64,000 bases of DNA. Origin: Candidatus Omnitrophota bacterium. Its GTDB lineage: Bacteria; Omnitrophota; Gorgyraeia; 2-02-FULL-51-18. The notes below the pieces were generated by a model. That model made no database searches, was not told the DNA's origin, and worked only from the letters and a program-made list of their open reading frames with translations. The DNA lies in the NCBI GenBank assembly GCA_016197155.1, contig JACPWF010000036.1, positions 931-64,930 on the forward strand, written 5' to 3'. Position 1 is the stretch's first letter, and every line of letters begins with the position of its first letter. A program made the translations under genes and the position numbers. Shown one piece after another: positions 30,452-59,086 of this stretch.

Positions 30452-31178
30452 GATCCCCCGGCACATCGCGATCATCATGGACGGCAACGGCCGTTGGGCG
30501 CGGGAGCGCGGGCTTCCGCGCGCGGCGGGGCACCGGGCGGGTGTCAAGACCGTCCGCGAGATCGTGAAGGCGTCGCTGGATCTGGGCGTGCCGGTTCTCA
30601 CCCTTTACGCCTTCAGCCAGGAAAATTGGAAGCGTCCCAAAGAGGAGGTGAGCCTTCTCATGGAACTGCTCGATTATTTTTTGAATAAGGAAATTGACCG
30701 GCTGAAAAAAGAGGGCGTGCGCGTGCGCACCATCGGCCGGATCGAGGCCCTGCCGGAGCGGACATTGAAAAAAGTGAAGGCCGCCATGGAGGCGACGCGG
30801 CACAACGACAAGCTCATCCTGAATGTGGCGCTCAATTACGGCGCGCGCACGGAAATTTTAGACGCCGTGAATCAGATCGTGGAAAAGGCCCGCGCGGGCG
30901 GCGTGCCGGGCATGAACGGCTCGGGGCTGACGGAGGAGGTGTTTTCCAATTACCTGTACACGAAGGGCCTGCCGGACCCGGATCTTTTGATCCGCACGAG
31001 CGGCGAGATGCGCCTCAGCAATTTTCTTTTGTGGCAGTTGTCGTACGCGGAGATCTACATCACGAAAAAATACTGGCCCGATTTCGCGCGCGAGGACTAT
31101 CTAAAGGCGATCCGGGAATACCAGAGGCGGGACAGGCGGTTCGGCGACATTTGCGCGGAGGATGCCGCCGGCCGATGA
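30441..31178 (+). CDS. uppS: Undecaprenyl diphosphate synthase
   Basis: HIAIIMDGNGRWARERGLPRAAGHRAG... ATG at 30441 overlaps the purA stop. The ORF-track start at 30330 was rejected. Confidence 0.9.
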   Translation: MENKIPRHIAIIMDGNGRWARERGLPRAAGHRAGVKTVREIVKASLDLGVPVLTLYAFSQENWKRPKEEVSLLMELLDYFLNKEIDRLKKEGVRVRTIGRIEALPERTLKKVKAAMEATRHNDKLILNVALNYGARTEILDAVNQIVEKARAGGVPGMNGSGLTEEVFSNYLYTKGLPDPDLLIRTSGEMRLSNFLLWQLSYAEIYITKKYWPDFAREDYLKAIREYQRRDRRFGDICAEDAAGR

Positions 31179-31993
31179 GCGCGTTTTCGACCCTTTCCCA
31201 GCGCGTGATCACGGGCCTCGTCCTCATCGGCGCCACCGCGGCGATCCTGTTTTTCTCGACGCCGTTTTATTTCAGCGTGGAGGTGACGCTTTTTGTGGCC
31301 CTCGGGCTTCTCGAATTTTTCAATTTAATGCGGGAGGGAAATGTCCCCGTTTACCGGTTTTTCGGCGTGTCGATGGGGATCGTGGTGCCGGTGCTTGTTT
31401 ACATGGAACTGGGAATGGCCGAATCCGGCGAGATCCTTTTTATCGTGCTCGGGTGCCTCTTTTTATTCGTGCTCCAATTTTTCCGCAAAGACAATTCCCA
31501 GGCCCTCATCGGCATCTCGCTCACGCTATTCGGAATTTTGTACGTGAGCTGGTTTTTGAGTTTTTTGATCAAGATCCGCTTTCTCGAAGGCGGGGCCTGG
31601 TGGGCGGCGTATCTCATCGCGGTGACGAAGGCCGCGGACATCGGCGCCTATTTTGTGGGGACCGCGGCGGGCCGGCACAGTTTGATTCCCCACATCAGCC
31701 CCAAAAAGTCCGTCGAGGGCACTTTCGCGGGGTTGGGCGCGAGCGTCCTGGTGTCATGGGCCCTCGGGCCCTATCTGCCGATCCGTTTCGGCGCGGGGCA
31801 CTTGGCGGTGGTCGGCCTTTTGATCGGCGCCGTCGGCCAGATCGGGGATCTTTCCGAATCGCTCATGAAACGTTTTTGCGACACGAAGGATTCGGGGCGG
31901 CTTCTCCCGGGAATGGGCGGGGTCCTGGACGCCGCGGACAGCATTCTCTTCACCGCGCCGATATTTTATTTTCATTTGAGAATATTTGCATGA
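31175..31993 (+). CDS. cdsA: Phosphatidate cytidylyltransferase
   Basis: Multi-pass membrane protein with the CdsA C-terminal signature (SLMKRFCDTKDSGRLLPGMGGVLD). ATG at 31175 overlaps the uppS stop (ATGA). Confidence 0.85.
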   Translation: MSAFSTLSQRVITGLVLIGATAAILFFSTPFYFSVEVTLFVALGLLEFFNLMREGNVPVYRFFGVSMGIVVPVLVYMELGMAESGEILFIVLGCLFLFVLQFFRKDNSQALIGISLTLFGILYVSWFLSFLIKIRFLEGGAWWAAYLIAVTKAADIGAYFVGTAAGRHSLIPHISPKKSVEGTFAGLGASVLVSWALGPYLPIRFGAGHLAVVGLLIGAVGQIGDLSESLMKRFCDTKDSGRLLPGMGGVLDAADSILFTAPIFYFHLRIFA

Positions 31994-33093
31994 AAAAAAA
32001 GGTTTTGATTCTCGGGTCCACCGGCTCGGTCGGTGAAAATACGCTCCGCGTGATCGAGGCGTTCCCGGACCGCTTCCAAGTCGCGGGTCTGGCGGCCGGC
32101 TCGAATGCCAAGCGCCTGGCGGAGCAGGCGGCCAAACACCGCCCCGAGGGCGTCTATCTCCATGATTCCGCCAAGGGGGATCTGTCCGCGTTTTGTTCGT
32201 CGGTGGACTACGACATTTTGGTCGCGGCCACCAGCGGCACCACGGCCCTTTTGCCGGTGATCGAGGCGCTTAGAAACGGCCGCCGCGTGGCGCTGGCGAA
32301 CAAGGAAATTCTCGTCGTGGCGGGGGGCCTCGTCATGGCGGCCCTTCGCGAAAATCCGGTCGCTTCGCTCATTCCCGTGGACAGCGAACACAGCGCCATT
32401 TTTCAATGCCTGGGCGGATGCCGCGCCCACGGCGTCGAGCGCCTCATCCTCACCGGTTCCGGAGGCCCCTTGCGCGAGGTGTCTTCGGAAAATTTTCCCA
32501 ATATTTCCAAAGAAACCGTGGTGAATCATCCGAAATGGAAAATGGGCAAAAAAATTTCCGTGGATTCGGCCACACTCATGAATAAGGGACTTGAGATCAT
32601 CGAGGCGTCCTGGCTTTTTGATCTGGCGATCGAGCGCATCGAGGTGCTGGTGCATCCCGAGGCGGTGGTCCATTCGATGGTGGAGTTTAAGGATGGCGCG
32701 ATCCTGGCGCAGTTGGGCGTCACCGACATGCGGCTCCCGATTCAGTACGCGCTTTCGTTCCCCGAGCGATGGGACTCGCCGGGCCTGCGGCTGGATTTTA
32801 AGGAATTGAACCCACTGCATTTTTATCCGGCGGACAGGAAAAAATTTCCGTGCCTCGCGCTCGCCATCGACGCGGCCAAAAAATCGGGAAGCGCGCCCTG
32901 CGTTTTGAGCGCGGCGGACGAAGTGGCCGTGCGGGCGTATCTCGAGGACCAGATCGGTTTCACGGACATCCCGCGCGTGATCGAGACCGTGCTGTCGCAT
33001 CACCGCCACGTCCCGGATCCGGACCTGCCCCAGATTCAATCGATCCACGCCTGGGCGGCTGAGGAGACGCAAAAATTATGTTTAGCGGACTAG
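31990..33093 (+). CDS. dxr: 1-deoxy-D-xylulose 5-phosphate reductoisomerase
   Basis: MKKKVLILGSTGSVGENTLRVI... over the full length (367 aa). The 643-aa ORF-track entry 31162-33093 is an upstream extension in the same frame that overlaps cdsA in a different frame and was rejected. Confidence 0.95.
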   Translation: MKKKVLILGSTGSVGENTLRVIEAFPDRFQVAGLAAGSNAKRLAEQAAKHRPEGVYLHDSAKGDLSAFCSSVDYDILVAATSGTTALLPVIEALRNGRRVALANKEILVVAGGLVMAALRENPVASLIPVDSEHSAIFQCLGGCRAHGVERLILTGSGGPLREVSSENFPNISKETVVNHPKWKMGKKISVDSATLMNKGLEIIEASWLFDLAIERIEVLVHPEAVVHSMVEFKDGAILAQLGVTDMRLPIQYALSFPERWDSPGLRLDFKELNPLHFYPADRKKFPCLALAIDAAKKSGSAPCVLSAADEVAVRAYLEDQIGFTDIPRVIETVLSHHRHVPDPDLPQIQSIHAWAAEETQKLCLAD

Positions 33094-36404: not shown

Positions 36405-37595
36405 GTGAGCACGGAATTATTGAACGTTCTGGAAAATATCGAGCGGGAAAAAGGGATCAGCCGGCAGATCTTGGTGGAGTCCATCGAGGCCGCGCTCGTC
36501 TCCGCGGCGAAAAAAGTTTTGCACGACAAGGACAAAGCGATCGAGGTGAAAGTCGACGTCGAAAACGGGCGGATCCGCATTTTCTCGGACGGCAAGGAAA
36601 TCGTCTCGAACGAATTCGGCCGCATCGCCGCGCAGACGGCAAAGCAGGTCATCTTTCAGAAGATCCGCGAGGCCGAGCGCGACGTGATTTTTGGCGAGTT
36701 CCAGGCGAAGGCCGAATCGATCACCAGCGGCACCGTCTACCGTTTTGAAAAGGGCGCGCTTCTCGTGGATCTGGGAAAGACCGAGGGGATCCTGCCGAAG
36801 CGCGAGATGTCCCCGCGCGACAACTACCGCCAGGGCGACACGATCCGCGCGTACATTTTGGAAGTGACCAAAACCGCCAAAGGCCCGCAGGTGATTTTGT
36901 CGCGCAGTCATCCCGGTTTCGTGAAGCGCCTCTTTGAGATGGAGGTGCCGGAAGTGGCCGACGGCCTGGTTGAGATCCGCTCCGTGTCCCGCGAGGCCGG
37001 CGACCGCACAAAGATCGCGGTTTGGTCAAAAAATGAAAAAGTGGACTGCGTCGGCGCCTGCGTGGGCATTCGCGGTTCGCGCGTGAAAGGGGTCGTGAAG
37101 GAGCTTCAGGGCGAAAAGATTGACATCATCCGCTGGAGCGACAACGCGGAGGAATTCATTCAGGCCGCGCTCAGCCCCGCGCAGGTGTCCTCCGTTAAAA
37201 TTTTGACCGCCGAGGAAAAAAAAGTCGAGGTGATCGTGGACGATGAGCAATTGTCGCTGGCGATCGGAAAGAACGGCCAAAACGTGCGGCTGGCCTCAAA
37301 GCTCACCGGCTGGTCGATCGATATCCGTTCAAAGAAGGACATTGCCAAGGAAAAATTGGAGGCCACGATGACGCCCGTTGGAGAAACCGCCCCCGCGGCC
37401 GAGGCCCCGACGGCGGATCTCGAAGGGATCGAGGGCATCGGCCCCAAGACCGCGCAGGCCCTCGCCGAGGCGGGTTTTAAAACGCTGGAAGATTTGAAAA
37501 AGGCGGGGGAAAAAGATCTTCTGGCGGTGAAGGGAATCGGTAAAAAGACCGCGGAGAAAATTTTGAATGCCGTGAAAAAGGAAGAGCCCTCATGA
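36405..37595 (+). CDS. nusA: Transcription termination/antitermination factor NusA
   Basis: GTG at 36405 follows a GGAAGG ribosome-binding site. [30 protein letters not shown]..., then S1 and KH domains and a C-terminal HhH repeat. Confidence 0.9.
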
Positions 37596-39805
37596 CCGAG
37601 CGCGTTCACACCCTCGCCAAAGAGCTGAAGATCCCGTCGAAGGACTTGATTGAAAAATTGAAGAAACTGAAGATCAAGGCCAAAAACCACATGAGTGCGC
37701 TCACGGATGAGGAGGTGCGCGCGGTGCGAAACACGCTCAAGAGCCCGCCGCCTCCGAAAAAACCGCTTTCGCAGACGCCTTCGATCGAAAGCGTCAAAAA
37801 AGAATTTTTATTGCAGCGTTTGGGGGCGAAGGCGGCTTCCCAGGAAACCCGGAAACCCGCGCCCGTGAGCGCGGGCCCGGCCGGGGCCTTGAGGAGAGGG
37901 GCGGCGCCCTCGGTCTTTGAAAAACCAAAGGCCCCCTCCGCCGTTGAAATTAAAAAAGCGCCGAAAACTTCCGCGGCGCCCATTTTTTCCCAGCCAGCGC
38001 CGGTCACGGCCCCGCCTCAGGCGGTGTCCGCGGCCCCCGAACCCAAGCGGACAAGAAAGATCGAGGTCGCCACGCCCATCACCGTCAAAGATCTGGCGGC
38101 GAAGTTTTTCGTCAGGCCGAGCGAGCTCATCCAGCGGCTCATCAAGATCGGGGTATTCGCGTCGATCAATCAGGCCATCAATTTTGAAATCGCCGGCAAG
38201 GTCGCGGTGGAATTCGGTTTTGAATTGGAAGAGACCAAGGCCGTCGAAGCCTCTCAAACGGAAGCGCCCAAAAAAACCGCGGACAAATCGCGTTTGGCGC
38301 CGCGCGCGCCTATCGTGACGTTCATGGGCCACGTCGATCACGGCAAGACTTCCCTGCTCGACGCGATCCGCAAAACCAAGGTCGCCGCCGGAGAAGCCGG
38401 CGGCATCACCCAGCATATCGGCGCGTACGAAGTCTTTCTGCCCAAAGGGGCCGTCACGTTTCTCGACACGCCGGGCCACGAGGCGTTCACGGCCATGCGC
38501 GCGCGCGGCGCCCGCGTGACGGATGTCGTCGTGCTCGTGGTGGCCGCGGATGACGGCGTCATGCCGCAGACGGTTGAGGCCATTGACCACGCCAAGGCCG
38601 CGAATGTTCCCATTATCGTCGCGATCAACAAAATCGATCTGCCGTCGGCCAACACCGACCGCGTGAAAAAAGGGCTGATGGAACACGGTTTGGCCGCCGA
38701 AGACTGGGGCGGCAAGACCATCATGACGGGCGTTTCCGCGAAAACCGGAAAGGGCATCGACGAACTTTTGGAAATGCTGGCGCTCGAGTCCGAGCTTCTG
38801 GAGCTTCGCGCCGATCCGGGCGCGCCCGCGTCGGGGGTCGTGATCGAGGCGGCGCTGGCCGCGGCGAGCGGCGTCTTGGCGACGGTGCTGGTGCAGGAGG
38901 GGACCCTGCGCGTGGGCGACGTGGTCGTGGTCGGCGCCGCTTACTGCAAGGTCCGCGCGATGATCAATGACCGCGGCCAAAGGGTCAAAGAGGCGCCGCC
39001 TTCGACGCCGGTTGAAATTTTAGGCCTGCCCGCCGTCCCCAAAGCGGGAGACCGTTTTCAAGTCATGAAAGACGAGCGCGAGGCCAAGACCCTGATCGAT
39101 CAGATGACCGGCGGTGCGGGACACAAGGATGGGCTCGCCGGCCACATCACACTCGAGCACCTTTTTGAGGAAATTAAAGCGGGGAAGGTCGAGGAGCTGA
39201 AACTCATCGTCAAATCCGACGTTCAGGGATCGGTGGAGGCGCTTCGCTCGACGCTGGCCAAGATTCAATCCAAGAACGTGCGCCTGAACATCATTCATTC
39301 CGGCATCGGCGACATCAGCGAGTCGGATGTCATGCTCGCGGCGGCTTCCAACGCGGTCGTGATCGGATTCCATGTGGGGATGGCGACGACCGCGGGGGAA
39401 TTCGCCGAGCGCGAACGCGTGGATGTCCGCTTTTACGAAATCATTTACGAAGTCAAGACCGCGATTGAAAAAGCGATGGAGGGCCTGCTGGCTCCGGAAT
39501 TAAAAGAAATTTTTGTGGGGACGGCCTAGGTGCGCCAGGTTTTTAAGGTGTCCAAGGCCGGCACCATCGCCGGGTGCACGGTGACCAAGGGGAAGATCGT
39601 CCGCAATTTCACCTGCCGCGTCCTCCGCGCCGGTAAAGTTGTCCACGACGGCAAGATCACCAGCCTCAAGCGGTTCAAAGACGACGTGCGCGAGGTGCTC
39701 GAGGGATTTGAATGCGGCATCGGCGTGTCGAATTTTGAGGACATTCTGTCCGGCGACCGGATCGAGGTTTTTGAATTGCAAGAAAAGGCCAGGAAACTCG
39801 AGTAA
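37592..39805 (+). CDS. infB: Translation initiation factor IF-2, interrupted by an in-frame TAG at 39527-39529
   Basis: N-terminus [28 protein letters not shown], the G domain ([24 protein letters not shown]) and the C-terminal beta-barrel. Residues 646 onward ([16 protein letters not shown]...FKDDVREV...GIGV...IEVFEL) continue in the same frame after the TAG. The TAG replaces the conserved Glu in ...LAEVRDVF. Confidence 0.85.
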
Positions 39806-40791
39806 TGAGCCGCGTTCTCTCCGGCATGCGGCCCACGGGCCCTTTGCATCTGGGGCATCTCTTGGGCGCGCTTGAAAATTGGATTCATCTGCAGAACACG
39901 CACGAATGTTTTTTCATGGTGGCGGATTTGCACGCGCTCATGGGCGAATACGAGGACCCGCGCGAGATCGAAAAAAATTCGATCGCGATGGTCATCGACT
40001 GGCTGGCCTCGGGCATCGACCCCGAGAAAAGCACGATCTTTATCCAGTCGCAGATCCCCGAGCACGCGGAGCTGGCCCTGATCCTGGGGATGCTCACCCC
40101 GCTCGGGTGGCTTGAGCGAAACCCCACTTATAAGGAACAACTGCGCGAGATCAAGGGCCGGGACCTGACCACTTACGGATTTTTGGGTTATCCGGTTTTG
40201 CAGGCGGCGGATATTTTGCTTTATAAAGCCGATCAGGTCCCCGTCGGCGAGGATCAGCTGGCGCATCTCGAGCTCGCGCGCGAGATCGTCCGGCGTTTCA
40301 AGCGCCTTTACAAAAAAGATTTTTTCCCGGAGCCCACGGCACTTCTCACGAAAGAGGCGCGGATCCTGGGGACGGACCGGCGGAAGATGTCGAAGAGCTA
40401 CGGCAACGCGATCCATCTTTCGGACGCGCCGGAGGCCGCACGCAAAAAAGTCCAGTCGATGATCACCGACCCCGCGCGCGTGAAGGCCTCCGACCCCGGC
40501 CATCCGGACGCGTGCAACGTTTATTCGTATTACAAAATTTTTTCCGACGATGCCGAGGTCAAGGCCGTTTACGATTGGTGCGCGGGCGCGAAAAAAGGCT
40601 GTACGGACTGCAAGAAAACCTTCGCGGAGATTCTCGTGGAAACGTTGAAACCGATTCACGAGCGCCGCGCCAAGATCGCGGCGGATCCCGCCTTTGTCGG
40701 GAAAATTTTAAAAAAGGGCCGCGCGCGCGCCGAAGCCGTCGCGCGGGAAACGATGGGTCAGGTTAAGGAACTTTTACATTTGGCCAAATGA
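39805..40791 (+). CDS. trpS: Tryptophan--tRNA ligase
   Basis: [26 protein letters not shown] (HIGH motif), KMSKS, full length (328 aa). Confidence 0.9.
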   Translation: MSRVLSGMRPTGPLHLGHLLGALENWIHLQNTHECFFMVADLHALMGEYEDPREIEKNSIAMVIDWLASGIDPEKSTIFIQSQIPEHAELALILGMLTPLGWLERNPTYKEQLREIKGRDLTTYGFLGYPVLQAADILLYKADQVPVGEDQLAHLELAREIVRRFKRLYKKDFFPEPTALLTKEARILGTDRRKMSKSYGNAIHLSDAPEAARKKVQSMITDPARVKASDPGHPDACNVYSYYKIFSDDAEVKAVYDWCAGAKKGCTDCKKTFAEILVETLKPIHERRAKIAADPAFVGKILKKGRARAEAVARETMGQVKELLHLAK

Positions 40792-41519
40792 CCTACAAAG
40801 TCAAACTCGAAGTTTTTGAGGGGCCGCTCGACCTTCTTCTTTATTTGATCAAAGAGGAAGAGCTCGATATTTACGACATCCCGATCACGCGGATCACGGG
40901 GCAGTATCTGGAATATTTGAATTTAATGGAACTTCTGGATCTGGACATCGCGGGTGAATTTTTGGTGATGGCCGCGACGCTCACCGAGATCAAATCCCGG
41001 ATGCTCCTGCCGCCGGACCCCGAGGCCGCCGAAGCCGAGGAGGCCGATCCGCGCGCGGAACTGGTGCGGCGGCTCCTGGAGTACAAGGCGTTTAAGGAAG
41101 CGGCCTCATCCTTGAGGGGTTTTGAGGCCGGCCGCGCCGATCTTTTCACGCGGCCGGGTGTGGAGACCGGGCAGGACCTGCCTAGCGGCAGGCGGGACAG
41201 CCCGTTTTGCGAAGCGTCCCTGTTCGATCTCCTCACGGCTTTTTCGAGGGTACTCGGCCGTTTGCCGAAGGATTCGTTTCATTCGATCGAAAAAGATGAG
41301 TTCACGGTGGCTGAAAAAGTCCACGAGCTTTTTCACCGGTTGGCGAAAGAACCGGTGGTTTATTTCAGCGCCCTCTTTCGCTCGGCGAAAAATAAATTTG
41401 AGGTGATCACGACGTTTCTGGCGCTTTTGGAGCTTGTCCGGATGAAAGAAGTGACGGTCCGTCAGTCGGGCCATTTTGATGAAATTGAAATCTTAAGGAG
41501 CGGCGGTGCCCGGGCCTGA
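40788..41519 (+). CDS. scpA: Segregation and condensation protein A
   Basis: EGPLDLLLYLIKEEELDIYDIPITRITGQYLEYL... Confidence 0.85.
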   Translation: MTYKVKLEVFEGPLDLLLYLIKEEELDIYDIPITRITGQYLEYLNLMELLDLDIAGEFLVMAATLTEIKSRMLLPPDPEAAEAEEADPRAELVRRLLEYKAFKEAASSLRGFEAGRADLFTRPGVETGQDLPSGRRDSPFCEASLFDLLTAFSRVLGRLPKDSFHSIEKDEFTVAEKVHELFHRLAKEPVVYFSALFRSAKNKFEVITTFLALLELVRMKEVTVRQSGHFDEIEILRSGGARA

Positions 41520-42099
41520 CGATTTAAAATCCGTCGTCGAGGCGCTTTTGTTCGCCAGCGACCGGCCCCTCCCGCCCGATGAGATTTGTCTGGCCTTTTC
41601 CGCCGACGAGGGGGAGGCGGTCACGCCGGACGCGGTCCGGGAGGCGATCGGGATTTTGAAATCGGAATACGAATCGGAGGGACGCGGATTCCGGCTTTGC
41701 GAAATTGCGGGCGGTTTTCAGCTCATGACGGATCCGCGTTTTGCGCCGACCCTCAGGTGTTTTTACCAGGCCCGAGAAAAAAAGAAGCTGTCGCAGGCCA
41801 GCCTCGAGACGCTGTCGGTGATCGCGTACCGCCAGCCGGTCGCGAAGGCGGACGTCGAGTTTGTCCGCGGGGTGAACGTCGACGGGGCCTTAAAGACCCT
41901 TCTTGAAAAAGAGCTCGTGAAGGTGGTGGGCCGGAAGGACGTGCCGGGCCGCCCGATGCTTTACGGAACGACGCCGTTCTTTCTCGAGCATTTCGGCTTG
42001 AGTTCATTGGAAGAACTGCCGCCGCTTCCCGCATTCACGGAAAAAGACATCGAGGCGAGTCTCCTGCCGCCCGAGTTGAAAGAAAAGGAATCCCCATGA
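41506..42099 (+). CDS. scpB: Segregation and condensation protein B
   Basis: VVEALLFASDRPL... with tandem winged-helix domains, immediately downstream of scpA. Confidence 0.85.
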   Translation: MPGPDDLKSVVEALLFASDRPLPPDEICLAFSADEGEAVTPDAVREAIGILKSEYESEGRGFRLCEIAGGFQLMTDPRFAPTLRCFYQAREKKKLSQASLETLSVIAYRQPVAKADVEFVRGVNVDGALKTLLEKELVKVVGRKDVPGRPMLYGTTPFFLEHFGLSSLEELPPLPAFTEKDIEASLLPPELKEKESP

Positions 42100-43175
42100 G
42101 CATGGACAAGATCAGAAAAGACATCGACTCCATTGACAAAAAAATTCTGGAGCTTTTGAACGAACGCGCAGACGCCTCCAAAAAAATCGGGCGGATCAAA
42201 CAAAAAGAGGGGGAGGGCATCTACGCCCCGCACCGCGAAAAAGAGATTTTGGACAAACTCAAGGCCGCCAATCGCGGGCCTCTGCCGGGCCAGGCGATCG
42301 AGGCGATTTACCGCGAGATCATGTCGAGCTCGATCAACCTCGAAAAACCCGTGACGATCGCGTACCTGGGACCCGAATTCACGTTCACGCACCAGGCGGC
42401 GCAGAAAAAATTCGGCGCGTCGGTGAATTATTTTTCCTGCTCCAACATTTCGGACGTGTTCACCGAGGTGGAGCGCGCCCGCAGTGATTACGGCGTCGTG
42501 CCGGTGGAAAATTCCACCGAGGGCGCGGTCAATTACACGCTCGACATGTTCATCGAGTCCGACCTGAAGATCGGGGCGGAGCTCTATCTGCCGATCAACC
42601 ACCACCTTTTGTCAAACGCCTCGTCGCTCAAAAAAATCAATCAGGTCTATTCCAACCCGCAGGCCTTCGCGCAGTGCCGCCTCTGGCTCGAGTCCAATCT
42701 GCCCGGCGCGCGCCTGGTGCCGGTGGCCAGCACCGCGGACGCCGCGAAGTTCGTCGCCGGGCACCCCCAATTCCGAGAGGAGATCGCGTGTCTGGCAAGC
42801 CTTTTGGCCGCCAAGCAGTACGGCCTGAAGGTGGTCGCGCGCTCGATCGAGGACAAGGCCAGCAACACGACGCGCTTCATCGTGATCTCGCGGACCGAAT
42901 CCCAGCCGACGGCGAGCGATCGCACGTCCATTGTGTTCGAGGTCAAAGACCGCGTGGGCGCCCTGCACGACAGCCTGGTTCCGTTTCAAACGGCGCGGAT
43001 CAATTTGACCAAGATCGAATCGCGCCCCTCAAAGAAAAAAGTGTGGAGTTATTATTTCTTCGTGGATTTTGAGGGCCACGCCAAAGAGCCCCGCGTGGAA
43101 AAGGCGCTTAAGGAACTCGAGACCCACTGCCGGTTTTTAAAAATTTTAGGCTCTTATCCCAGGGCAGAAGCCTGA
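42096..43175 (+). CDS. pheA: Bifunctional chorismate mutase / prephenate dehydratase (with ACT domain)
   Basis: N-terminal AroQ chorismate mutase helix (IRKDIDSIDKKILELLNERADASKKIGRIK), a PDT domain (TRF(L/I)VIS) and a C-terminal ACT domain. Confidence 0.9.
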   Translation: MSMDKIRKDIDSIDKKILELLNERADASKKIGRIKQKEGEGIYAPHREKEILDKLKAANRGPLPGQAIEAIYREIMSSSINLEKPVTIAYLGPEFTFTHQAAQKKFGASVNYFSCSNISDVFTEVERARSDYGVVPVENSTEGAVNYTLDMFIESDLKIGAELYLPINHHLLSNASSLKKINQVYSNPQAFAQCRLWLESNLPGARLVPVASTADAAKFVAGHPQFREEIACLASLLAAKQYGLKVVARSIEDKASNTTRFIVISRTESQPTASDRTSIVFEVKDRVGALHDSLVPFQTARINLTKIESRPSKKKVWSYYFFVDFEGHAKEPRVEKALKELETHCRFLKILGSYPRAEA

Positions 43176-44293
43176 TGCCGGAAGGACCTCTTTTTCGCTC
43201 GGCCAAAAAAAATCTCGCCCTTGTCAAAAATTACGAACCGGGGAAGCCTCTCGAGGAACTCGAGCGCGAATACGGCGTGAAGCGCGCCGTGAAGCTCGCG
43301 TCCAACGAGAACTCCCTCGGCCCTTCGCCGAAGGCGCTTGTGGCCGCCAAAAAAGCGCTGGCGCGCGTTCACCGCTACCCCGACGGCGGCTCGTTTTATC
43401 TGCGGCGGCGCCTTTCAAAATTTTTGGGCGTGCGGCCCGAGACGCTCATTTTCGGAAACGGCTCGGACGAAATCCTTGTGATGGCCGCGCGCGCCTTTGC
43501 CGGCAAAGGGGACGAGGTGCTCATCGCCGACCCCACTTTTTTGATTTATGAGATCGCCTCCCGGGCCGAGGGGGCGAATGTCGTGAAAGTGCCGATGAAG
43601 AATTTTCATTACGACCTGGAGGCGATGCGCGGGCGGCTGGGCGCGCGAACGAAACTTATTTTCATCGCCAACCCCGATAACCCCGTGGGGACTTACATTC
43701 AAAAAGGGCCGCTCCTGCGTTTTCTAAAGGCCGTGCCGCGCCGCGCGGTCGTGGTGCTGGACGAGGCGTACCATGAATTCGCCAGACAAGAGAAAGATTA
43801 TCCGCGCTCGCTTGAGCTGCTTAAAACATTCGACAACCTGATCGTCACGCGCACCTTTTCGAAGGCCTATGGATTGTCGGGGCTTCGCATCGGTTACGGG
43901 GTCGCGCGGCCGGAAGTGATCCGATCGCTCAACAAAGTGCGAGAGCCCTTTAACGTGAACCTCGTCGCGCAGGCCGCGGCCGCGGCCGCGCTCGACGACA
44001 CGGCGCATTTGCGGCGCACCCTCCGGATGGTGAAAGAAGGCCGGGCCGTTCTTCAAAAAGCGCTCACGGCACTCGGATTCGCCGTCGTCGGGACGGCCAC
44101 CAATTTTATTTTGGCGGACGCCAAAACCGACGCGCGGATTTTGTACGAAAAACTCCTGAGGAAGGGCGTCATCGTCCGCTCGATGCACGCCTGGGGGATG
44201 GACACCTTTATCCGCGTCACGATCGGAAGGCCGGAGGAAAACCGGAAATTGATAAACGCCTTAAAAGAAATTTTGAAAAAGGAGCCGTCATGA
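43175..44293 (+). CDS. hisC: Histidinol-phosphate / aromatic aminotransferase (class II, HisC family)
   Basis: LASNENSLGPSP...YPDGG..., PLP-lysine region SKAYGLSGLRIGY. Embedded in the aromatic amino acid gene block. Confidence 0.8.
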   Translation: MPEGPLFRSAKKNLALVKNYEPGKPLEELEREYGVKRAVKLASNENSLGPSPKALVAAKKALARVHRYPDGGSFYLRRRLSKFLGVRPETLIFGNGSDEILVMAARAFAGKGDEVLIADPTFLIYEIASRAEGANVVKVPMKNFHYDLEAMRGRLGARTKLIFIANPDNPVGTYIQKGPLLRFLKAVPRRAVVVLDEAYHEFARQEKDYPRSLELLKTFDNLIVTRTFSKAYGLSGLRIGYGVARPEVIRSLNKVREPFNVNLVAQAAAAAALDDTAHLRRTLRMVKEGRAVLQKALTALGFAVVGTATNFILADAKTDARILYEKLLRKGVIVRSMHAWGMDTFIRVTIGRPEENRKLINALKEILKKEPS

Positions 44294-45306
44294 TCATCGT
44301 TTTGAAACCGGAAGCGACCCCAAAAGAGATCAAGCACATCGAGGACAAGATCCGCGAGCTGGGCTTGAAACCGATGCTCTCCGTCGGAAAGGAGAGAACC
44401 ATCATCGGCGTCATCGGCGAGGAGGACAAGGCGCGCATCCAGCCGTTTGAGGCCTTCCCCGGCGTCGAGAGCGTGATGCCGATCCAAAAGCCCTACAAAT
44501 TTGTTTCGCGCGAGTTTAAAAAAGAGGACAGCGTCGTCAAGATCGTCCCCGGCGTCGAGGTCGGGGGAGAGAAGATCGTCGTGATGGCCGGCCCCTGCAC
44601 GGTCGAGAATCGCGAGAGGTTGCTGGCCATCGCCGAGCTCGTGAAAAAAAGCGGCGCCAAGGTTTTGAGAGGGGGCGCCTTCAAGCCCCGCACCTCTCCC
44701 TATTCTTTCCAGGGCCTGAAGGACAAGGGGATGAAATTTTTGTACGAGGCGAAGAAAAAAGTCGGCCTTCCCATCGTCACGGAGCTCATGGACCCGCGCG
44801 ACCTGCCGCTTTTTCTGAAATACGCGGACATCATTCAAATCGGCGCGCGGAACATGCAGAACTTCGAACTTTTGAAAGAGGTCGGCAAAACCAAAAAGCC
44901 CGTGCTTTTGAAACGCGGGATGGCCAGCACGATCAAGGATTTTTTGTTGTCCGCCGAATACGTCGTCTCGGAGGGAAACCCCAACTGCATCCTGTGCGAG
45001 CGCGGCATCCGCACGTTTGAGGACACGACGCGCTTCACGCTCGACATCAGCGCGGTGCCGGTCATTAAAAAATTGAGCCACCTGCCGGTCATCATCGACC
45101 CCTCGCATTGTTCCGGCATCTGGGACTACGTGGCGCCGCTGGCCAAGGCGGCGATCGCCGTCGGCGCGGACGGACTTTTGATCGAGGTCCACAACGATCC
45201 GGAAAAGGCGCTCTGCGACGGCCCGCAGGCCCTGAAGCCGAATAAGTTCGACGCGCTCATGCACGAACTCCGCCAGATCGCCGCGGTCATCGGAAGGACC
45301 CTCTAG
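44290..45306 (+). CDS. 3-deoxy-7-phosphoheptulonate (DAHP) synthase, type I-beta with N-terminal ferredoxin-like regulatory domain
   Basis: MIIVLKPEATPKEIKHIEDKIRELGLKPM (regulatory domain), then GPCTVENRERLLAIAELVKKSGAKVLRGGAFKPRTSPYSFQG... (KDO8PS-like TIM barrel). Confidence 0.85.
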   Translation: MIIVLKPEATPKEIKHIEDKIRELGLKPMLSVGKERTIIGVIGEEDKARIQPFEAFPGVESVMPIQKPYKFVSREFKKEDSVVKIVPGVEVGGEKIVVMAGPCTVENRERLLAIAELVKKSGAKVLRGGAFKPRTSPYSFQGLKDKGMKFLYEAKKKVGLPIVTELMDPRDLPLFLKYADIIQIGARNMQNFELLKEVGKTKKPVLLKRGMASTIKDFLLSAEYVVSEGNPNCILCERGIRTFEDTTRFTLDISAVPVIKKLSHLPVIIDPSHCSGIWDYVAPLAKAAIAVGADGLLIEVHNDPEKALCDGPQALKPNKFDALMHELRQIAAVIGRTL

Positions 45307-45380
45307 GCGCCTTCGGAAAAACTGGACTTTTGGCGATCGAGAATGTATACTCATTGTATATCCATTTGGAGGATTGAGCG

Positions 45381-45623
45381 ATGACAACGACCGTTCAAAA
45401 ATGGGGAAACAGCCTGGCCCTGCGGATCCCGATTGCTTTCGCAAGAAATATCCACCTGCGCCGGGGATCGGAAGTGGACCTGGTGATGACAAAAGATAAA
45501 ATCGAGATTCGTCCGGCCAAACCCGGCAAGAAGTACGTCTTGTCAGAAATGATAAGAAAAATCAACAAGAAAAACGTTCACTCAGAGACGGAATGGGGAA
45601 CGGTCGGCCGGGAAATGCTTTGA
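45381..45623 (+). CDS. mazE: MazE/PemI-like antitoxin (SpoVT/AbrB swapped-hairpin fold)
   Basis: MTTTVQKWGNSLALRIPIAFARNIHLRRGSEVDL... 80 aa. Its stop overlaps the start of the downstream toxin gene. Confidence 0.75.
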   Translation: MTTTVQKWGNSLALRIPIAFARNIHLRRGSEVDLVMTKDKIEIRPAKPGKKYVLSEMIRKINKKNVHSETEWGTVGREML

Positions 45624-45985
45624 TGCCCCAAACGTACTGTCCCGAACGGGGCGATGTCGTTTGGATCTCATTTTCTCCGCAGAGCGGGCACGAACAGGCG
45701 GGCCACAGGCCGGCTCTCGTGTTGACCCCCAAGGCCTATAACCGGAAAACAGGCGTGGCCGTTTTTTGTCCCATTACCACCAAAGCAAAGGGCTATTCGT
45801 TTGAAGTGGTTATCCCGCCGGGTCATGAGATCAGCGGCGTTGTTTTGTCCGACCACCTCAAAAGCCTTGACTGGAGGGGCAGGCGCGCCCATTTTTGCTG
45901 CGTGATGCCCGCCGGACTTGTCGATGATGTGACACAGCAAATAGGGGTTCTCCTGCAGGCCAAGATTTCCCGAGACGTTCAATGA
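45623..45985 (+). CDS. mazF: MazF/PemK-like endoribonuclease toxin
   Basis: MPQTYCPERGDVVWISFSPQSGHEQAGHRPALVLTPKAYNRKTGVAVFCPITT... ATG at 45623 overlaps the mazE TGA. Confidence 0.8.
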   Translation: MPQTYCPERGDVVWISFSPQSGHEQAGHRPALVLTPKAYNRKTGVAVFCPITTKAKGYSFEVVIPPGHEISGVVLSDHLKSLDWRGRRAHFCCVMPAGLVDDVTQQIGVLLQAKISRDVQ

Positions 45986-46827
45986 AAAAACCATTATTTA
46001 AAAAAATTGCGATCGTCGGCGTCGGCCTGATCGGAGGCTCGATCGGGATGGCCGTCAAGCGGCGCAAGCTGGCCGGGCTCGTGGTCGGCGTGGTTCATCA
46101 CAGGAAAACCATTCCGGGGGCTTTTGAAAAAAAAGCGATAGACGTCGCCACGCTCGATTTGCGCGAGGGGATAAAAGGGGCGGACCTTGTCGTTCTCTGC
46201 GCGCCGGTTGAAACCATCATCCGGCAACTGGAGAGAATAGGCCCTTACCTGAAAAGGGGCGCCGTTGTGATAGACGTGGGCAGTTCAAAGGTTGAAATCA
46301 ATAAAAAAGCGAAAAAAAATCTGAAACAGAATCGCTTCGTGGGCTGTCACCCCATGGCGGGTTCCGAAAAACAGGGCGTGTCCTTCGCCGATGCGGATCT
46401 TTTTAAGAATCGGGTTTGCTTTTTAACGGCCCGCGACCGGCTCATCGAAAAGTTTTGGCGGAATTTGGGCTCCCGGACTTTTTATTTGGCGCCGGCCGAG
46501 CACGACCGATGGGTGGCGTCGGTCAGCCACCTGCCTCATCTTCTGTCGTTTATCCTGTTTCAAAAGATAAGCCCGGGGCTCTTAAAGGGACGGCAGATCA
46601 AGGAACTGAATCCCAGTATCCGCGATTTCGCGCGGCTGGCCCAATCCGATCCGGCGCTGTGGTCAGAAATTTTATTATCCAACCGCGAAAATATTTTAGA
46701 AGCGCTTTCTCGATTTAAAGCGGATGCCGCGCGGTTCCGGAATATTCTTCATTCTAAAAATTCCGCCGGACTTACTCAATTTATCTCCCATGCCAGAAAA
46801 AGCGCGTCCGAATTCGCCGCGGATTAA
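45982..46827 (+). CDS. tyrA: Prephenate/arogenate dehydrogenase
   Basis: IAIVGVGLIGGSIGMAVKRRKL... (NAD-binding) and a catalytic domain with the HLPH motif (SHLPHLLSF). Confidence 0.85.
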   Translation: MKKPLFKKIAIVGVGLIGGSIGMAVKRRKLAGLVVGVVHHRKTIPGAFEKKAIDVATLDLREGIKGADLVVLCAPVETIIRQLERIGPYLKRGAVVIDVGSSKVEINKKAKKNLKQNRFVGCHPMAGSEKQGVSFADADLFKNRVCFLTARDRLIEKFWRNLGSRTFYLAPAEHDRWVASVSHLPHLLSFILFQKISPGLLKGRQIKELNPSIRDFARLAQSDPALWSEILLSNRENILEALSRFKADAARFRNILHSKNSAGLTQFISHARKSASEFAAD

Positions 46828-47497
46828 ACGCCGGCTCATCATCGCCATTGACGGTCCCGCGGGAAGTGGCAAATCCACCACGGCCAAGGCGCTCGCCAGG
46901 CGTCTCAGGATTCCCTACATTGACAGCGGCGCCATGTACCGCGCCCTCACGCTCGCGGCCGTCGAGAAAAAGGTTTCCTTCCGCGACAAACCCGCGCTCG
47001 TCCGCCTGGCGAAGCAATGCGAGATCGGCCTCGAAGCCGATCCCGGCAGGGCCCAAAGGGTATTTCTGGACGGAAAGGACGTCACGCGGCGGATCCGACT
47101 CCCGGAGCTCACCTCGAAAGTCTTTGCCGTCGCGCAGATTCCCGCGATCCGGCGGGAGCTCGTGGGGAAGCAGAGGCGTTTGGGCCTCCGGCGCGGGGGG
47201 GTCATGGAGGGCCGCGACATCGGGACGGTCGTTTTCCCGGGGGCGGATTATAAATTTTTCTTCGTTGCCAAGGAAGCGATCCGGGCCAAGAGGCGGCACC
47301 GGGAGCTTTTGGCCTCCGGCGCCCGCGCGGGGTTTTCCCGCGTTTTGAGGGACATGCAAAAGAGGGACCGGACCGACCGCACGCGCCGCGAAGGCCCCTT
47401 GAAACGCGCCAAGGACGCGGTCCTCATCGACACAACGTCATTGACAATTTCCCAGACAGTTGATAGAATCCTGCGGTTTCTCGCCCATGCCCGGTAA
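46790..47497 (+). CDS. cmk: Cytidylate kinase
   Basis: IIAIDGPAGSGKSTTAKALARRLRIPYIDSGAMYRALT... The ATG at 46790 gives a 38-nt overlap with tyrA. Conserved cmk-rpsA linkage nearby. Confidence 0.88.
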   Translation: MPEKARPNSPRIKRRLIIAIDGPAGSGKSTTAKALARRLRIPYIDSGAMYRALTLAAVEKKVSFRDKPALVRLAKQCEIGLEADPGRAQRVFLDGKDVTRRIRLPELTSKVFAVAQIPAIRRELVGKQRRLGLRRGGVMEGRDIGTVVFPGADYKFFFVAKEAIRAKRRHRELLASGARAGFSRVLRDMQKRDRTDRTRREGPLKRAKDAVLIDTTSLTISQTVDRILRFLAHAR

Positions 47498-48167
47498 CGC
47501 GCGCGGCGCGGGGCGCGCGGCGGGGTCGGTCTGGTTTTACGGGTTTATAAAAGCTGTTCTTTTTATCGCGTATAAAATTTTTTTTCGTTTCAGGTGTTAT
47601 GGCTCCGAGAATATCCCGGGCCCCGACGACCCCCGCGGCGTGATTTTGGCGGCCAATCACGCCAGTTTTTTGGACCCGCCGCTCATCGGCATCTCGTCCG
47701 AACGTCGCGTCACTTTTTTGGCGAAAAATTATTTGTTTAAGGCTTTTTTCGTCGGCAGTATCCTCCGCGGCATCGGCAGTTTTCCGATCAAGACGGGCGC
47801 GAATGATTTTAAAACCATTCGCGGCCTCATCCGCCTTCTCGAGGCGGGCCGGTGTCTCTTGGTTTTTCCGGAAGGCACGCGCTCGCCCGACGGGCAATTT
47901 CGCGAGCCCGAGGGCGGGGTCGGATTTCTGGCCGCCAAAAGCCGCGCGGTCGTGGTGCCCGTTTATATCCGGGGTTCTTTTGAGGCCTTTCCGAAGGGGG
48001 CCCGGTTTTTCAGGTGTCACCCGATCGAGATCCGGTTTGGCAAGGCGTTTGTGCCGGTTCTCGAAAAAGAGACGGCGGGCGAGGGCGCGGATCCTTATCT
48101 GGCCGTGAGCCAAAGCATTATGGAAGCCATCAAAAAACTGGCGGTTGAAAGTTCACCGCGGGAATAG
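47487..48167 (+). CDS. plsC: 1-acyl-sn-glycerol-3-phosphate acyltransferase
   Basis: ANHASFLDPPL (HX4D variant context) and FPEGTRS motifs typical of the LPLAT/AGPAT family. Confidence 0.85.
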   Translation: MPGNARGAGRAAGSVWFYGFIKAVLFIAYKIFFRFRCYGSENIPGPDDPRGVILAANHASFLDPPLIGISSERRVTFLAKNYLFKAFFVGSILRGIGSFPIKTGANDFKTIRGLIRLLEAGRCLLVFPEGTRSPDGQFREPEGGVGFLAAKSRAVVVPVYIRGSFEAFPKGARFFRCHPIEIRFGKAFVPVLEKETAGEGADPYLAVSQSIMEAIKKLAVESSPRE

Positions 48168-53657: not shown

Positions 53658-53685
53658 TTCATTATCTTTGACGCCAATTATTACA

Positions 53686-55042
<1,357 letters not shown>

Positions 55043-55371: not shown

Positions 55372-57498
55372 AAAAATTTTTTGTTCTTTGACAATTTCAT
55401 AGAGGGTAAGACGAACATCTTCAAGTCATACAGTCCGAAATTAACATTTCAAAATGTTAATTAGGAAAGGTGACTCGAGAAAGACATAAGGTCAAGCTAC
55501 GTAGGGTTTGTGGTGGATGACTAGGTGTCGACAGGCGATGAAGGACGCGGTAAGCGGCGATACGCTTCGGGGAGTCGCAAACAGACTTTGATCCGGAGAT
55601 TTCCGAATGGGGCAACCCCTTACGGCTCATCCCGTAAGATCATCCGCTGAATTCATAGGCGGATGAAGCGATACCCGGGGAAGTGAAACATCTCAGTACC
55701 CGGAGGAAAAGAAAACGAAGATATTCCCCCAGTAGCGGCGAGCGAAAAGGGAATAGCCCAAACCCGTTAAACTTATAGCCTGCAGGCGTTGTTTAGCGGG
55801 GGTTGCGGGGCGTTACCGGACTTCTCTGCATAGAAGTCGCTCTGTTACAAAGTTGCTGCATAATCGAGCGCGTTGGAAAACGCGACTACAAAAGGTGATA
55901 GTCCTGTAGATGAAATGCACGCGACCAGAGCGGGTGACGATCCCAATTACTACCCGACACGGGAAACCGGGTAGGAATTCGGCCGGACCACCGGCCAAGG
56001 CTAAATACTCGTTGGCAACCGATAGTGAACCAGTACCGTGAGGGAAAGTTGAAAAGAACCCAGGAATGGGAGTGAAATAGTACCTGAAACCGCAAACTTG
56101 CAAGCTGTGGGAGCCCTATATACGAAGCGCAAGCGTCGTAAATGGGTGACCGCGTGCCTTTTGCATAATGATCCGGCGAGTCAATCTTTGATGCGAGGTT
56201 AAGGACAACGTGTCCGGAGCCGAAGCGAAAGCGAGTCCTAACTAGGGCGATTTAGTATCAGGGATTGGACCCGAAGCTGAGTGATCTACCCATGGCCAGA
56301 GTGAAGCCTGAGTAAAATCAGGTGGAGGCTCGAACGGGTGACTGTTGAAAAAGTCTCCGATGAGCTGTGGGTCGGAGTGAAAGGCTAATCAAACTCAGTA
56401 ATAGCTGGTTCTCCTCGAAATATCTTTAGGGATAGGCTCGTAACATTGAATACCGGGGGTAGAGTACTCAATGGGCTAGGGACCTCACCAGGTTACCGAA
56501 CCCAATGAAACTCCGAATACCGGTATTTTTACTACGGGGCTCAGAACGCCAGGGCTAAGCTTGGCGCTCAAAAGGGAAAAAGCCCAGACCGCCAGATAAG
56601 GTCCCTAATATTCGCTAAGTGGTAAAGGATGTGAGACCGCGTTAACAACCAGGATGTTGGCTTAGAGGCAGCCATCATTTAAAGAGTGCGTAACAGCTCA
56701 CTGGTCGATTGTGGTCTTGCGCCGACAATGATCGGGGCTCAAGCGAATAACCGAATCTGCGGATTCATTTTGTCTTCGGACAGAGTGAGTGGTAGGGGAG
56801 CGTTCCACAATAGGCTGAAGGCATACCGTAAGGAGTGCTGGACGAAGTGGAAGTGATTATGCCGGAATGAGTAGCGAAAAAACACGTGGAAAACGTGTTC
56901 GCCGAAAGTCTAAGGTTTCCTGGGGAAGGTTAATCCACCCAGGGTTAGTCGATCCTAAGCTGAGGCCGAAAGGCGTAAGTGATGGACAATGCGTTAATAT
57001 TCGCATACCACCTATTTTGCGTTACCAACTGGTCAGGGACGCAGGAGGCTAAGCAATCAGGCTGTTGGATGTGCCTGTTTGGATCCGTACCCGTGCCCGC
57101 GAGGGCATGGAGAGGGATTCGAGGAGTCAAAGCTACGGCTGAGATAAACTTGCTGACGCCACACTGTCGAGAAAATCTGATCGTGTGAGTGAGATAGGTG
57201 ATCGTACCGCAAACCGACACAGGTAGACGAGGATAAATGTCCTCAGGCGCTCGAGAGAACCGTTCTTAAGGAACTCTGCAATCTAGCCCCGTAACTTCGG
57301 AATAAGGGGTGCCTTATTTTGTGGTGCGCCATACGGCGCATTGCATCGTAAGGTCGCAGTGAAATGGGCGCCGCGACTGTTTAGCAAAAACTCATCTCTC
57401 TGCAAAGTCGCATCATAAGACGACGTATAGGGAGTGACACCTGCCCGGTACTGGAAGGTTAAAGAGAGGGGTTATCCGTAAGGAGAAGCTCCGAACCG

Positions 57499-57810
<312 letters not shown>

Positions 57811-57824
57811 AACGGTCCTAAGGT

Positions 57825-58491
57825 TAGTAACGCTAGCCTGCTTCGATGGTAACATCGAAGGTAATATTCAACTATATGCGGGAAACTCTTCAAAAGATGC
57901 TGGTACTCGTTGATCTTCGGATGCAACAGTAAAAAACCAACATACAAGGAGACAATCCGCAGGGAAGGCATAGAAAACTATGAACCCTCAGAGACTACAA
58001 GTTGAATATCCGGAAAGTCACGAGACTTTATTGAGTCCGGATTGGTTGGTGGGTTTCGTGGATGGCGAAGGTTGTTTTCACGTCGGAATAAGCAAACACA
58101 ACGAGGTCAAATTCGGTTACCAGATTTTGCCGGAGCTGACGGTTGTTCAGCATCAAAGTGATATCGCTCTTCTTCATCGAATACGCACATTTATGCAGTG
58201 CGGCGTGGTGAGAAGAAATCATGGAGATCGCTATTGCTGGCGAGTTCGAGATTTAAAAAATCTCACTCAGATTATTCTGCCGTTTTTTCAAAAGCATCCT
58301 TTGAGGTCCAAGAAAAACATCGAATTCGAAAAGTTCGCTGATGTCGTTCGCCGAATGCAAAAAGGTGAACATTTAACAGCGGACGGATTTAATAAAATTG
58401 TGACTCTCGCTTCAAGCATGAATAAAAAACATGATAGGAGCGAACGGATAAAGATAGAGTCCGAACCGTGATGAAACTCATGGATAATTCG
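57825..58491 (+). mobile_element. Group I intron at 23S position L1931 carrying a LAGLIDADG homing endonuclease gene
   Basis: Follows the 14-nt micro-exon AACGGTCCTAAGGT (positions 1918-1931) and ends ...GGATAATTCG before AGCGAAATTCC. Contains the ORF 57980-58471. Confidence 0.7.
57980..58471 (+). CDS. LAGLIDADG homing endonuclease (single-motif, I-CreI-like), encoded in the L1931 intron
   Basis: LVGFVDGEGCFHVGISKHNEVKFGYQILPELTVVQHQSDIALLHRIRTFMQCGVV... 163 aa. An RBS-like GGGAAGG lies upstream. Local GC is about 40%, versus about 62% for the genome. Confidence 0.85.
   Translation: MNPQRLQVEYPESHETLLSPDWLVGFVDGEGCFHVGISKHNEVKFGYQILPELTVVQHQSDIALLHRIRTFMQCGVVRRNHGDRYCWRVRDLKNLTQIILPFFQKHPLRSKKNIEFEKFADVVRRMQKGEHLTADGFNKIVTLASSMNKKHDRSERIKIESEP

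Positions 58492-58541
<50 letters not shown>

Positions 58542-59048: not shown

Positions 59049-59086
<38 letters not shown>

What the first reader, a model, noticed from the sequence alone, without database searches (positions are those of the whole stretch)
39500..39560. In-frame TAG inside infB at a conserved glutamate codon, immediately followed by an in-frame GTG
IF-2 is read ...[33 protein letters not shown]..., which aligns to E. coli ...[30 protein letters not shown]. A single G>T change converts GAG to TAG. TAG is otherwise used as a genuine stop in this window (topA, hldE-like, kdsA, lptC, tig, dxr), so the code is not reassigned. The downstream 91 codons are the intact fMet-tRNA-binding C2 domain in the same frame, beginning with GTG. 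Possible explanations are: a sequencing error; a strain-level nonsense polymorphism in a population; programmed readthrough; or split expression of IF-2 as G-domain+C1 and a separate C2 polypeptide.
Basis: seen in the sequence. Interest (0 to 1): 0.6.

Follow-up and report, generated by a model that had tools for sequence, protein, structure and literature searches.

The report
Lone stop codon inside infB
A single G-to-T change puts a stop codon inside the essential translation factor gene infB of an uncultivated Omnitrophota bacterium, but no relative shares it and nothing else marks it as programmed, so it is most likely an assembly error or a rare defective variant.

Summary
infB (37592..) hits an in-frame TAG at 39527-39529, and a GTG at 39530 opens 91 more in-frame codons that encode the C2 (fMet-tRNA-binding) domain. 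The two pieces cover positions 4-495 and 498-585 of the 587-position IF-2 profile.

The stop is private to this sequence:
- All 120 best IF-2 homologues (up to 84% identical, Omnitrophota) are uninterrupted.
- All 27 closest genomes carry GAA or GAG at the site.
- The next codon drifts among GTG, GTC, GTT and GTA, so the GTG is an ordinary valine codon.
- A degenerate pattern requiring TAG in this context found nothing in 241 million metagenome records.

TAG is a normal terminator here: 9 other genes end in TAG, and 7 of those ends are confirmed by family profiles. infB is the only broken gene among about 45, and C2 shows no decay.

My best reading (about 0.6) is a consensus or base-call error, or a rare non-functional allele. 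The main rival (about 0.25) is a real, recent nonsense allele rescued by restart at the abutting GTG or by leaky readthrough. Programmed recoding is very unlikely.

The same strain occurs in SRR12113391, but I could not retrieve a contig covering the site. Read pile-up there would decide.

The parts
37592..39529 (+). infB, N-terminal region through the G and C1 domains (645 codons), ending at the premature TAG. The start overlaps the nusA stop (ATGA, 37592-37595).
   Evidence: TIGR00487 profile positions 4-495 of 587, E = 5e-192.
39527..39529 (+). In-frame TAG at the position of a conserved Glu (E. coli IF2 E799). It is one G>T step from GAG. It creates the only CCTAGG in the window (39525-39530).
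39530..39805 (+). 91-codon in-frame continuation encoding the IF-2 C2 (fMet-tRNA-binding) beta-barrel. It begins with GTG (the ancestral Val codon) and ends at TAA, which overlaps the trpS start (TAATG).
   Evidence: TIGR00487 positions 498-585, E = 6e-33; 1D1N and 3JCJ; no excess of private substitutions.
39517..39521 (+). GGGGA, a weak Shine-Dalgarno-like match 8 nt upstream of the GTG. It is formed by the conserved Val-Gly codons.
   Evidence: -6.9 kcal/mol against the 16S 3' tail CACCUCCUUU. This is similar to real genes in the window and is reached by 14% of random positions; the 16S 3' end.

Best explanation
The TAG is an isolated single-base difference (GAG to TAG) private to this assembly. 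It is not an evolved feature. Most likely the organism's working infB reads GAG (Glu) and encodes an ordinary full-length IF-2 of 737 residues. The T at 39527 would then be a base-call or consensus error, or a rare defective allele from a micro-diverse, low-abundance population that the assembler happened to follow. On this reading there is no mechanism to explain.

Shown here:
- The stop is private to this sequence.
- TAG is a normal terminator in this genome.
- The rest of infB and all neighbouring genes are intact.

Inferred: the T does not represent the viable population.
For: - Not conserved: 120 of 120 best homologues are uninterrupted, with Glu at the site in all the closest ones. The 27 closest GTDB genomes have GAA or GAG there. 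The pattern TTYGTNGGNNNNGCNTAGGTNMGNCARGTNTTYAARGT has 0 hits in metagenome contigs.
- The following GTG is one of four synonymous Val codons seen in relatives.
- Standard code: 9 other genes end in TAG, 7 with profile-confirmed ends. There is no suppressor tRNA in the window.
- No decay: the window has 1 private change in 193 near-invariant columns of G-C1, against a median of 1 for the other sequences. Apart from the stop it has 1 in 53 in C2.
- The TAG creates CTAG, a tetranucleotide this genome avoids about 8-fold (30 seen, 239 expected). It also creates the only CCTAGG in 64 kb, so the site looks recent or foreign to the genome's long-term composition.
- IF-2 is essential, and C2 carries the whole fMet-tRNA binding site and is the last anchor of the factor on the ribosome (PMC8709274, read). 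A majority allele that truncates it is therefore a priori unlikely.
- The population is micro-diverse and low-coverage in at least one run. Logan contigs of SRR12113391 are only 2-5 kb and differ from the window at 3 of 7,599 positions.
Against: - The assembly is otherwise clean. None of about 45 genes has a frameshift or a second premature stop, so a generally error-prone consensus is not supported.
- The lesion sits at a spot where a real nonsense allele would be most survivable. It is at the C1/C2 linker, abutted by a start codon, with an SD-like sequence at a suitable distance. Only 0.6% of possible nonsense substitutions in the window have both a start codon next and an SD match this good. 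This statistic is post hoc.
- No read-level or independent-assembly evidence at the site could be obtained.
Confidence: 0.6

Rival explanations
1. A real, recent nonsense allele carried by viable cells. Ribosomes terminate at UAG, and some restart at once on the abutting GUG (termination-reinitiation). This yields IF-2 G-C1 (645 aa) plus a free 10-kDa C2 domain. Alternatively or in addition, near-cognate readthrough of UAG supplies a little full-length IF-2. This would be the first step of a gene fission.
For: - The stop and start are adjacent (0-nt spacing). An SD-like GGGGA lies 8 nt upstream at -6.9 kcal/mol, comparable to real genes here.
- Coupling by termination-reinitiation needs overlaps or very short distances (PMC10666635). 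The operon already uses ATGA and TAATG overlaps at nusA/infB, infB/trpS and trpS/scpA.
- The break is near the C1/C2 boundary: the 1D1N construct starts 8 residues upstream.
- C2 is undecayed.
- Only 0.6% of possible nonsense changes share the start-plus-SD context.
- The assembly is otherwise clean.
- Isolated C2 binds fMet-tRNA on its own (Spurio et al. 2000, as cited in PMC8709274).
Against: - The split is not seen in any relative.
- The GTG and the SD-like sequence are by-products of conserved Val-Gly-x-x-Glu-Val codons.
- C2 has to be tethered to the ribosome-bound body of IF-2 to deliver fMet-tRNA (PMC8709274). There is no evidence that the two pieces associate.
- The AF2 model of the 91-aa piece alone is poor (pLDDT 59.8).
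- There is no stimulatory RNA structure (z = -0.42).
Confidence: 0.25
2. A real allele that is sheltered. This infB copy would be a very young pseudogene because a second intact infB exists elsewhere in the genome, or because the cells are polyploid and heterozygous.
For: Only a single lesion and no decay, which is compatible with a very recent inactivation.
Against: - The gene sits in the canonical rimP-nusA-infB position.
- Homology searches turned up no second same-species IF-2: the best hits were 84-86% identical.
- Duplicate infB genes are not a known feature of bacteria (my own knowledge).
Confidence: 0.08
3. Programmed recoding. UAG at this site would be decoded as an amino acid by a suppressor tRNA(CUA), by pyrrolysine machinery, or by site-specific readthrough.
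For: The stop falls exactly on a conserved Glu codon and the reading frame continues intact.
Against: - TAG terminates 9 other genes, 7 at profile-confirmed ends.
- Only one in-frame TAG occurs in about 16,800 codons.
- No relative has the stop.
- There is no suppressor tRNA or pyl gene in the window.
- There is no significant downstream structure.
Confidence: 0.03

Closest known systems
Ordinary bacterial infB (IF-2, TIGR00487) in the rimP-nusA-infB operon
   Same: - Same domain order and same synteny.
- 84% identity to Omnitrophota IF-2.
- All catalytic and fMet-tRNA-binding motifs are present.
   Different: One codon, conserved Glu in relatives (GAA or GAG), reads TAG.
Translational restart after amber mutations (the classical lacI and T4 rIIB restarts) and translational coupling by termination-reinitiation
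   Same: A stop codon is directly followed by an in-frame GUG with a weak SD-like sequence upstream. This is the geometry that allows a terminating ribosome to restart (PMC10666635 and PMC6728339).
   Different: Those are laboratory mutants or conserved gene pairs. Here nothing shows that restart occurs, and the arrangement is not conserved. The lacI and rIIB cases are recalled from my own knowledge, not checked in a paper here.
E. coli IF2 isoforms (alpha, beta, gamma) made from in-frame internal starts in infB
   Same: More than one polypeptide from one infB reading frame via internal GUG or AUG starts (my own knowledge).
   Different: Those starts lie in the N-terminal region with no intervening stop, and every isoform keeps G-C1-C2 covalently joined. 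Here the break would detach C2.
Stop-codon reassignment or suppression (pyrrolysine at UAG; UAG or UAR read as Glu in some protists; recoded phages)
   Same: An in-frame UAG at a sense position. UAR read as Glu does exist, in Blastocrithidia (PMC12153298 abstract).
   Different: In those systems in-frame UAGs are numerous and UAG is rare or absent as a terminator. Here there is one in-frame UAG and nine normal UAG terminators.

Membership tests
Bacterial IF-2 (infB) | GTPase domain, C1 domain and C2 domain matching the family profile | tested here: met
   TIGR00487 positions 4-495 and 498-585 of 587. PDB IF-2 chains match at E = 6e-34.
Bacterial IF-2 (infB) | A single uninterrupted reading frame | tested here: not met
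   TAG at 39527-39529. All 120 best homologues are uninterrupted.
Stop-codon reassignment or suppressor-based recoding of UAG | UAG rare or absent as a true terminator | tested here: not met
   Nine other genes end in TAG, and 7 of those ends fall within 8 residues of the family-profile end.
Stop-codon reassignment or suppressor-based recoding of UAG | Many in-frame UAGs at conserved sense positions | tested here: not met
   infB is the only one among about 45 genes that were compared with profiles.
Stop-codon reassignment or suppressor-based recoding of UAG | tRNA with a CUA anticodon, or pylT/pylS, present in the genome | not testable with these tools
   The window holds only tRNA-Ile(GAT) and tRNA-Ala(TGC). 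The rest of the genome is not available.
Programmed readthrough site | Stop codon conserved at the same position in orthologues | tested here: not met
   0 of 27 closest genomes and 0 of 120 homologues have it. A TAG-specific pattern gave 0 metagenome hits.
Programmed readthrough site | Stimulatory RNA structure or sequence context downstream | tested here: not met
   Folding 39490-39610 gives z = -0.42 against shuffles.
Split gene expressed by termination-reinitiation (gene fission) | Stop and start overlapping or only a few nucleotides apart, with a usable start codon | tested here: met
   TAG at 39527-39529 is followed directly by GTG at 39530. An SD-like GGGGA scores -6.9 kcal/mol.
Split gene expressed by termination-reinitiation (gene fission) | Split maintained in related genomes | tested here: not met
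   No relative is split, and the Val codon drifts among GTG, GTC, GTT and GTA.
Split gene expressed by termination-reinitiation (gene fission) | Both polypeptides made and jointly functional | not testable with these tools
   This needs proteomics or complementation. AF2 of the 91-aa piece alone gave only pLDDT 59.8.
Decaying pseudogene | Several lesions or relaxed constraint | tested here: not met
   There is a single lesion. Private changes at near-invariant columns are 1 of 193 and 1 of 53, within the range of intact homologues. C2 divergence is slightly high, but the intact sister P0001 shares that.
Sequencing or assembly artefact | Base not supported by reads or by an independent assembly | not testable with these tools
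   The same strain was found in the Logan assembly of SRR12113391 (L081, L082). No contig or protein covering 39527 could be retrieved.
Sequencing or assembly artefact | Other signs of an error-prone consensus nearby | tested here: not met
   No other broken gene in the window.

The most novel reading that the evidence does not exclude
The TAG is real and fixed in this Omnitrophota lineage. IF-2 would then be made as two polypeptides: the G-C1 body, and a free C2 fMet-tRNA-binding domain produced by termination-reinitiation at UAG|GUG. The two would work together in trans. That would be a natural fission of a universally single-chain, essential translation factor, caught at its very first step.
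Probability: 0.08. Interest if true: 0.6.

Novelty: not a real feature. Interest (0 to 1): 0.15.

Why it matters
If it is an artefact or a rare allele, as I judge most likely, it matters only as a quality flag. Annotation pipelines will call infB a pseudogene or two genes in this genome, and completeness or essential-gene checks will be misled.

If the stop proved real and fixed, it would show that the fMet-tRNA-binding domain of IF-2 can work untethered. That would be unexpected given current models of how C2 anchors the factor on the ribosome, and it would give a natural example of gene fission through a nonsense mutation next to a restart codon.

Tried and rejected
- **Exact-sequence look-ups.** The 645-aa piece, the 91-aa piece (as a DNA reference and again as letters starting with M), trpS, proS and nusA (GTG start at 36405) are not on record. 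DAHP synthase and scpA were found, both in Logan SRR12113391, but those contigs stop at window 40327 and do not reach the site.
- **Metagenome pattern scans.** One pattern was TAG-specific. The other kept this organism's amino-acid context with any codon at the site. Both gave 0 hits.
- **Extra homology searches.** Two searches used only the 146 aa around the site and the 160 aa before it, to catch same-strain fragments. The best hits were 83% and 86% identical, so none is the same strain.
- **GTDB genome scan.** The source genome is absent; the best match is 85% identical.
- **Illumina GGC-triggered errors.** A GGC lies 3-5 nt upstream of the T. However, such miscalls copy the preceding base, which here would be C, not T (PMC3141275). 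This gives no specific support.
- **RNA structure around the stop.** Not better than shuffles.
- **AF2 model of the 91-aa ORF.** Low confidence, so I used it only to note strands from about residue 5.
- **Apparent 'CdsA-Dxr fusion' ORF 31162..33093.** This is just upstream ORF extension in GC-rich DNA. dxr starts at Met277.
- **Paper search for SRR12113391.** Nothing found.

Full report
**What is there.** The infB reading frame starts at 37592, overlapping the nusA stop as ATGA. It runs 645 codons to a TAG at 39527-39529. The very next codon, GTG at 39530, opens 91 further in-frame codons that end at TAA 39803-39805, which overlaps the trpS start as TAATG. The NCBIfam IF-2 model TIGR00487 (587 positions) matches the first piece at positions 4-495 and the second at 498-585, so only the stop position separates them. 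Against solved structures, the stop replaces E. coli IF2 Glu799 in ...GLAEVRDVF.... The NMR construct of the C2 domain (1D1N) begins 8 residues upstream of it.

**Whose genome.** The best IF-2 matches are Candidatus Omnitrophota proteins, at up to 84% identity. The window carries housekeeping operons: LPS and Kdo synthesis, clpP, serA, purA, uppS-cdsA-dxr-rseP, proS, rimP-nusA-infB, trpS, scpAB, aromatic amino-acid genes, rpsA and tyrS. It also carries one rRNA operon. The source genome is not in the protein collection, the GTDB representatives or the JGI metagenome contigs.

**Is the code altered?** No.
- In 48 tiled + strand ORFs the stops are TGA 20, TAA 18 and TAG 10.
- For seven TAG-terminated genes the family profile ends within 8 residues of the TAG: topA, hldE domain I, kdsA, tig, dxr, DAHP synthase and uracil-DNA glycosylase.
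- Of about 45 genes compared with profiles, all are full length except infB.
- The only tRNAs in the window are Ile-GAT and Ala-TGC, in the rRNA spacer.

**Is the stop conserved?** No.
- All 120 best homologues are uninterrupted. The site is Glu in 88 and Asp in 9 of the 100 that the motif search could read.
- In the 27 closest GTDB genomes (72-85% identical over the C-terminal 220 residues) the codon is GAA or GAG. The following valine codon is GTG, GTC, GTT or GTA, which is plain synonymous drift.
- A degenerate DNA pattern requiring TAG in the F-V-G-x-A-TAG-V-R-Q-V-F-K-V context has no match in 241 million metagenome records.

The TAG is thus one G>T step from GAG, the commoner Glu codon here (705 GAG against 528 GAA). 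It is private to this sequence. The GTG is simply the ancestral valine codon.

**Is the downstream part decaying?** No.
- In an alignment with 78 homologues, the window has 1 private change in 193 near-invariant columns of G-C1. The median for the other sequences is also 1.
- Apart from the stop, it has 1 private change in 53 near-invariant columns of C2.
- C2 is slightly more diverged relative to G-C1 than usual (ratio 1.04, rank 77 of 79). The closest intact relative, P0001, shows the same (1.06), so this is a clade trait and not decay.

The lesion is therefore either very recent, not real, or the C2 part is still used.

**Could a real allele be rescued?**
- The geometry would allow termination-reinitiation. 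The spacing is 0 nt, and a GGGGA lies 8 nt upstream that pairs with the canonical 16S tail at -6.9 kcal/mol. That is typical of real genes here and is reached by 14% of random positions.
- Experiments show that such coupling needs overlaps or very short distances (PMC10666635), and this operon is full of ATGA and TAATG junctions.
- Of 5,084 possible nonsense substitutions in the window's genes, 5.8% are followed directly by a start codon and 0.6% also have an SD match this good. This coincidence favours a 'survivor' reading somewhat. However, it is post hoc, and both elements are by-products of conserved codons.
- Against a functional split, C2 holds the whole fMet-tRNA binding site and is the last anchor of IF-2 on the ribosome (PMC8709274). 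A detached C2 would not be expected to deliver the tRNA.
- The region has no significant RNA structure (z = -0.42). An AlphaFold model of the 91-residue piece alone is of low confidence (pLDDT 59.8).

**Error or real?** The sequence context gives no answer.
- The TAG creates CTAG, which this genome avoids about 8-fold (30 seen, 239 expected). It also creates the only CCTAGG in 64 kb. That fits something recent or artefactual but does not discriminate between the two.
- The known Illumina GGC-triggered miscalls would give C, not T (PMC3141275).
- The same strain is present in the Logan assembly of run SRR12113391. L082 equals window 40327-42516 exactly. L081 equals 42491-47899 with three differences: one synonymous T/C at 42920, and an adjacent GG/CC at 47510-47511. 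The population is thus real and slightly micro-diverse, and that run assembled it only into 2-5 kb pieces.
- No contig or protein fragment covering 39527 could be retrieved despite six look-ups and two targeted homology searches.

**Verdict.** This is a lone, unconserved point lesion in an otherwise ordinary infB.
- About 0.6: the viable organism has GAG, and the T is a consensus error or a rare defective allele.
- About 0.25: a real, recent nonsense allele that survives through restart at the abutting GTG and/or leaky readthrough.
- About 0.08: a sheltered fresh pseudogene.
- About 0.03: programmed recoding.

Read pile-up at 39527 in SRR12113391 and the MAG's own libraries would settle it.

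Noticed in passing
window 3174-5438 (+): A ThiS-like ubiquitin-fold domain (TIGR01683, full 64-position match) ends in ...FVGGG and runs without a stop, through an 8-residue linker, into topoisomerase I (...LVIVESPAK...). The same in-frame arrangement occurs in an independent protein, P0122, at 64% identity. It therefore looks like a genuine ThiS-TopA fusion in this clade. ThiS normally needs a free Gly-Gly C-terminus.
   Followed up: partly
window 55490-59219 (+), introns at 57518-57763 and 57815-58483: The 23S rRNA gene carries two group I introns (Rfam RF00028, 67.7 and 76.5 bits). The second contains a 163-aa ORF (57980-58471) with no NCBIfam match.
   Followed up: no
window 53684-55039 (+): The 16S rRNA matches the full bacterial SSU model (positions 1-1533) but spans only 1,356 nt, which implies about 180 nt of deletions relative to the consensus. 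Its 3' end is a canonical ...CACCUCCUUUCU.
   Followed up: no
window 59219-60396 (+): The 5S rRNA (60280-60396) lies about 1 kb downstream of the 23S instead of directly after it. An unannotated ORF (59298-59798) sits in between.
   Followed up: no
window 8451-10397, 10325-12481 and 14272-16221 (+): There are three long ORFs in the LPS cluster that look like fusions:
- a lauroyl acyltransferase plus about 330 unassigned residues;
- a GT4 glycosyltransferase plus heptosyltransferase II;
- two heptosyltransferase modules in one frame.
   Followed up: no
window about 45381-45985 (+); L081 2891-3495: A MazE/PemK-type toxin-antitoxin pair sits between the DAHP synthase and prephenate dehydrogenase genes. 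It fills what looked like an empty gap in the aromatic amino-acid cluster (gene calls on the Logan contig).
   Followed up: partly
whole window; CCTAGG at 39525-39530: CTAG is about 8-fold under-represented (30 seen, 239 expected from base composition). The palindrome CCTAGG occurs only once in 64 kb, and that single copy is the one created by the infB TAG.
   Followed up: partly
window 42920 and 47510-47511; loci L081 and L082: The same strain is present in the Logan assembly of SRR12113391. There are three differences over 7.6 kb: a synonymous T/C in pheA, and an adjacent GG/CC in a GC-rich stretch at the start of the plsC-like ORF. This is evidence of population micro-diversity.
   Followed up: partly
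window 39805-42099 (+): infB is followed by trpS-scpA-scpB, joined by 1-nt and 4-nt overlaps, rather than by the rbfA-truB-rpsO-pnp genes that usually follow infB in bacteria (the usual order is from my own knowledge).
   Followed up: no
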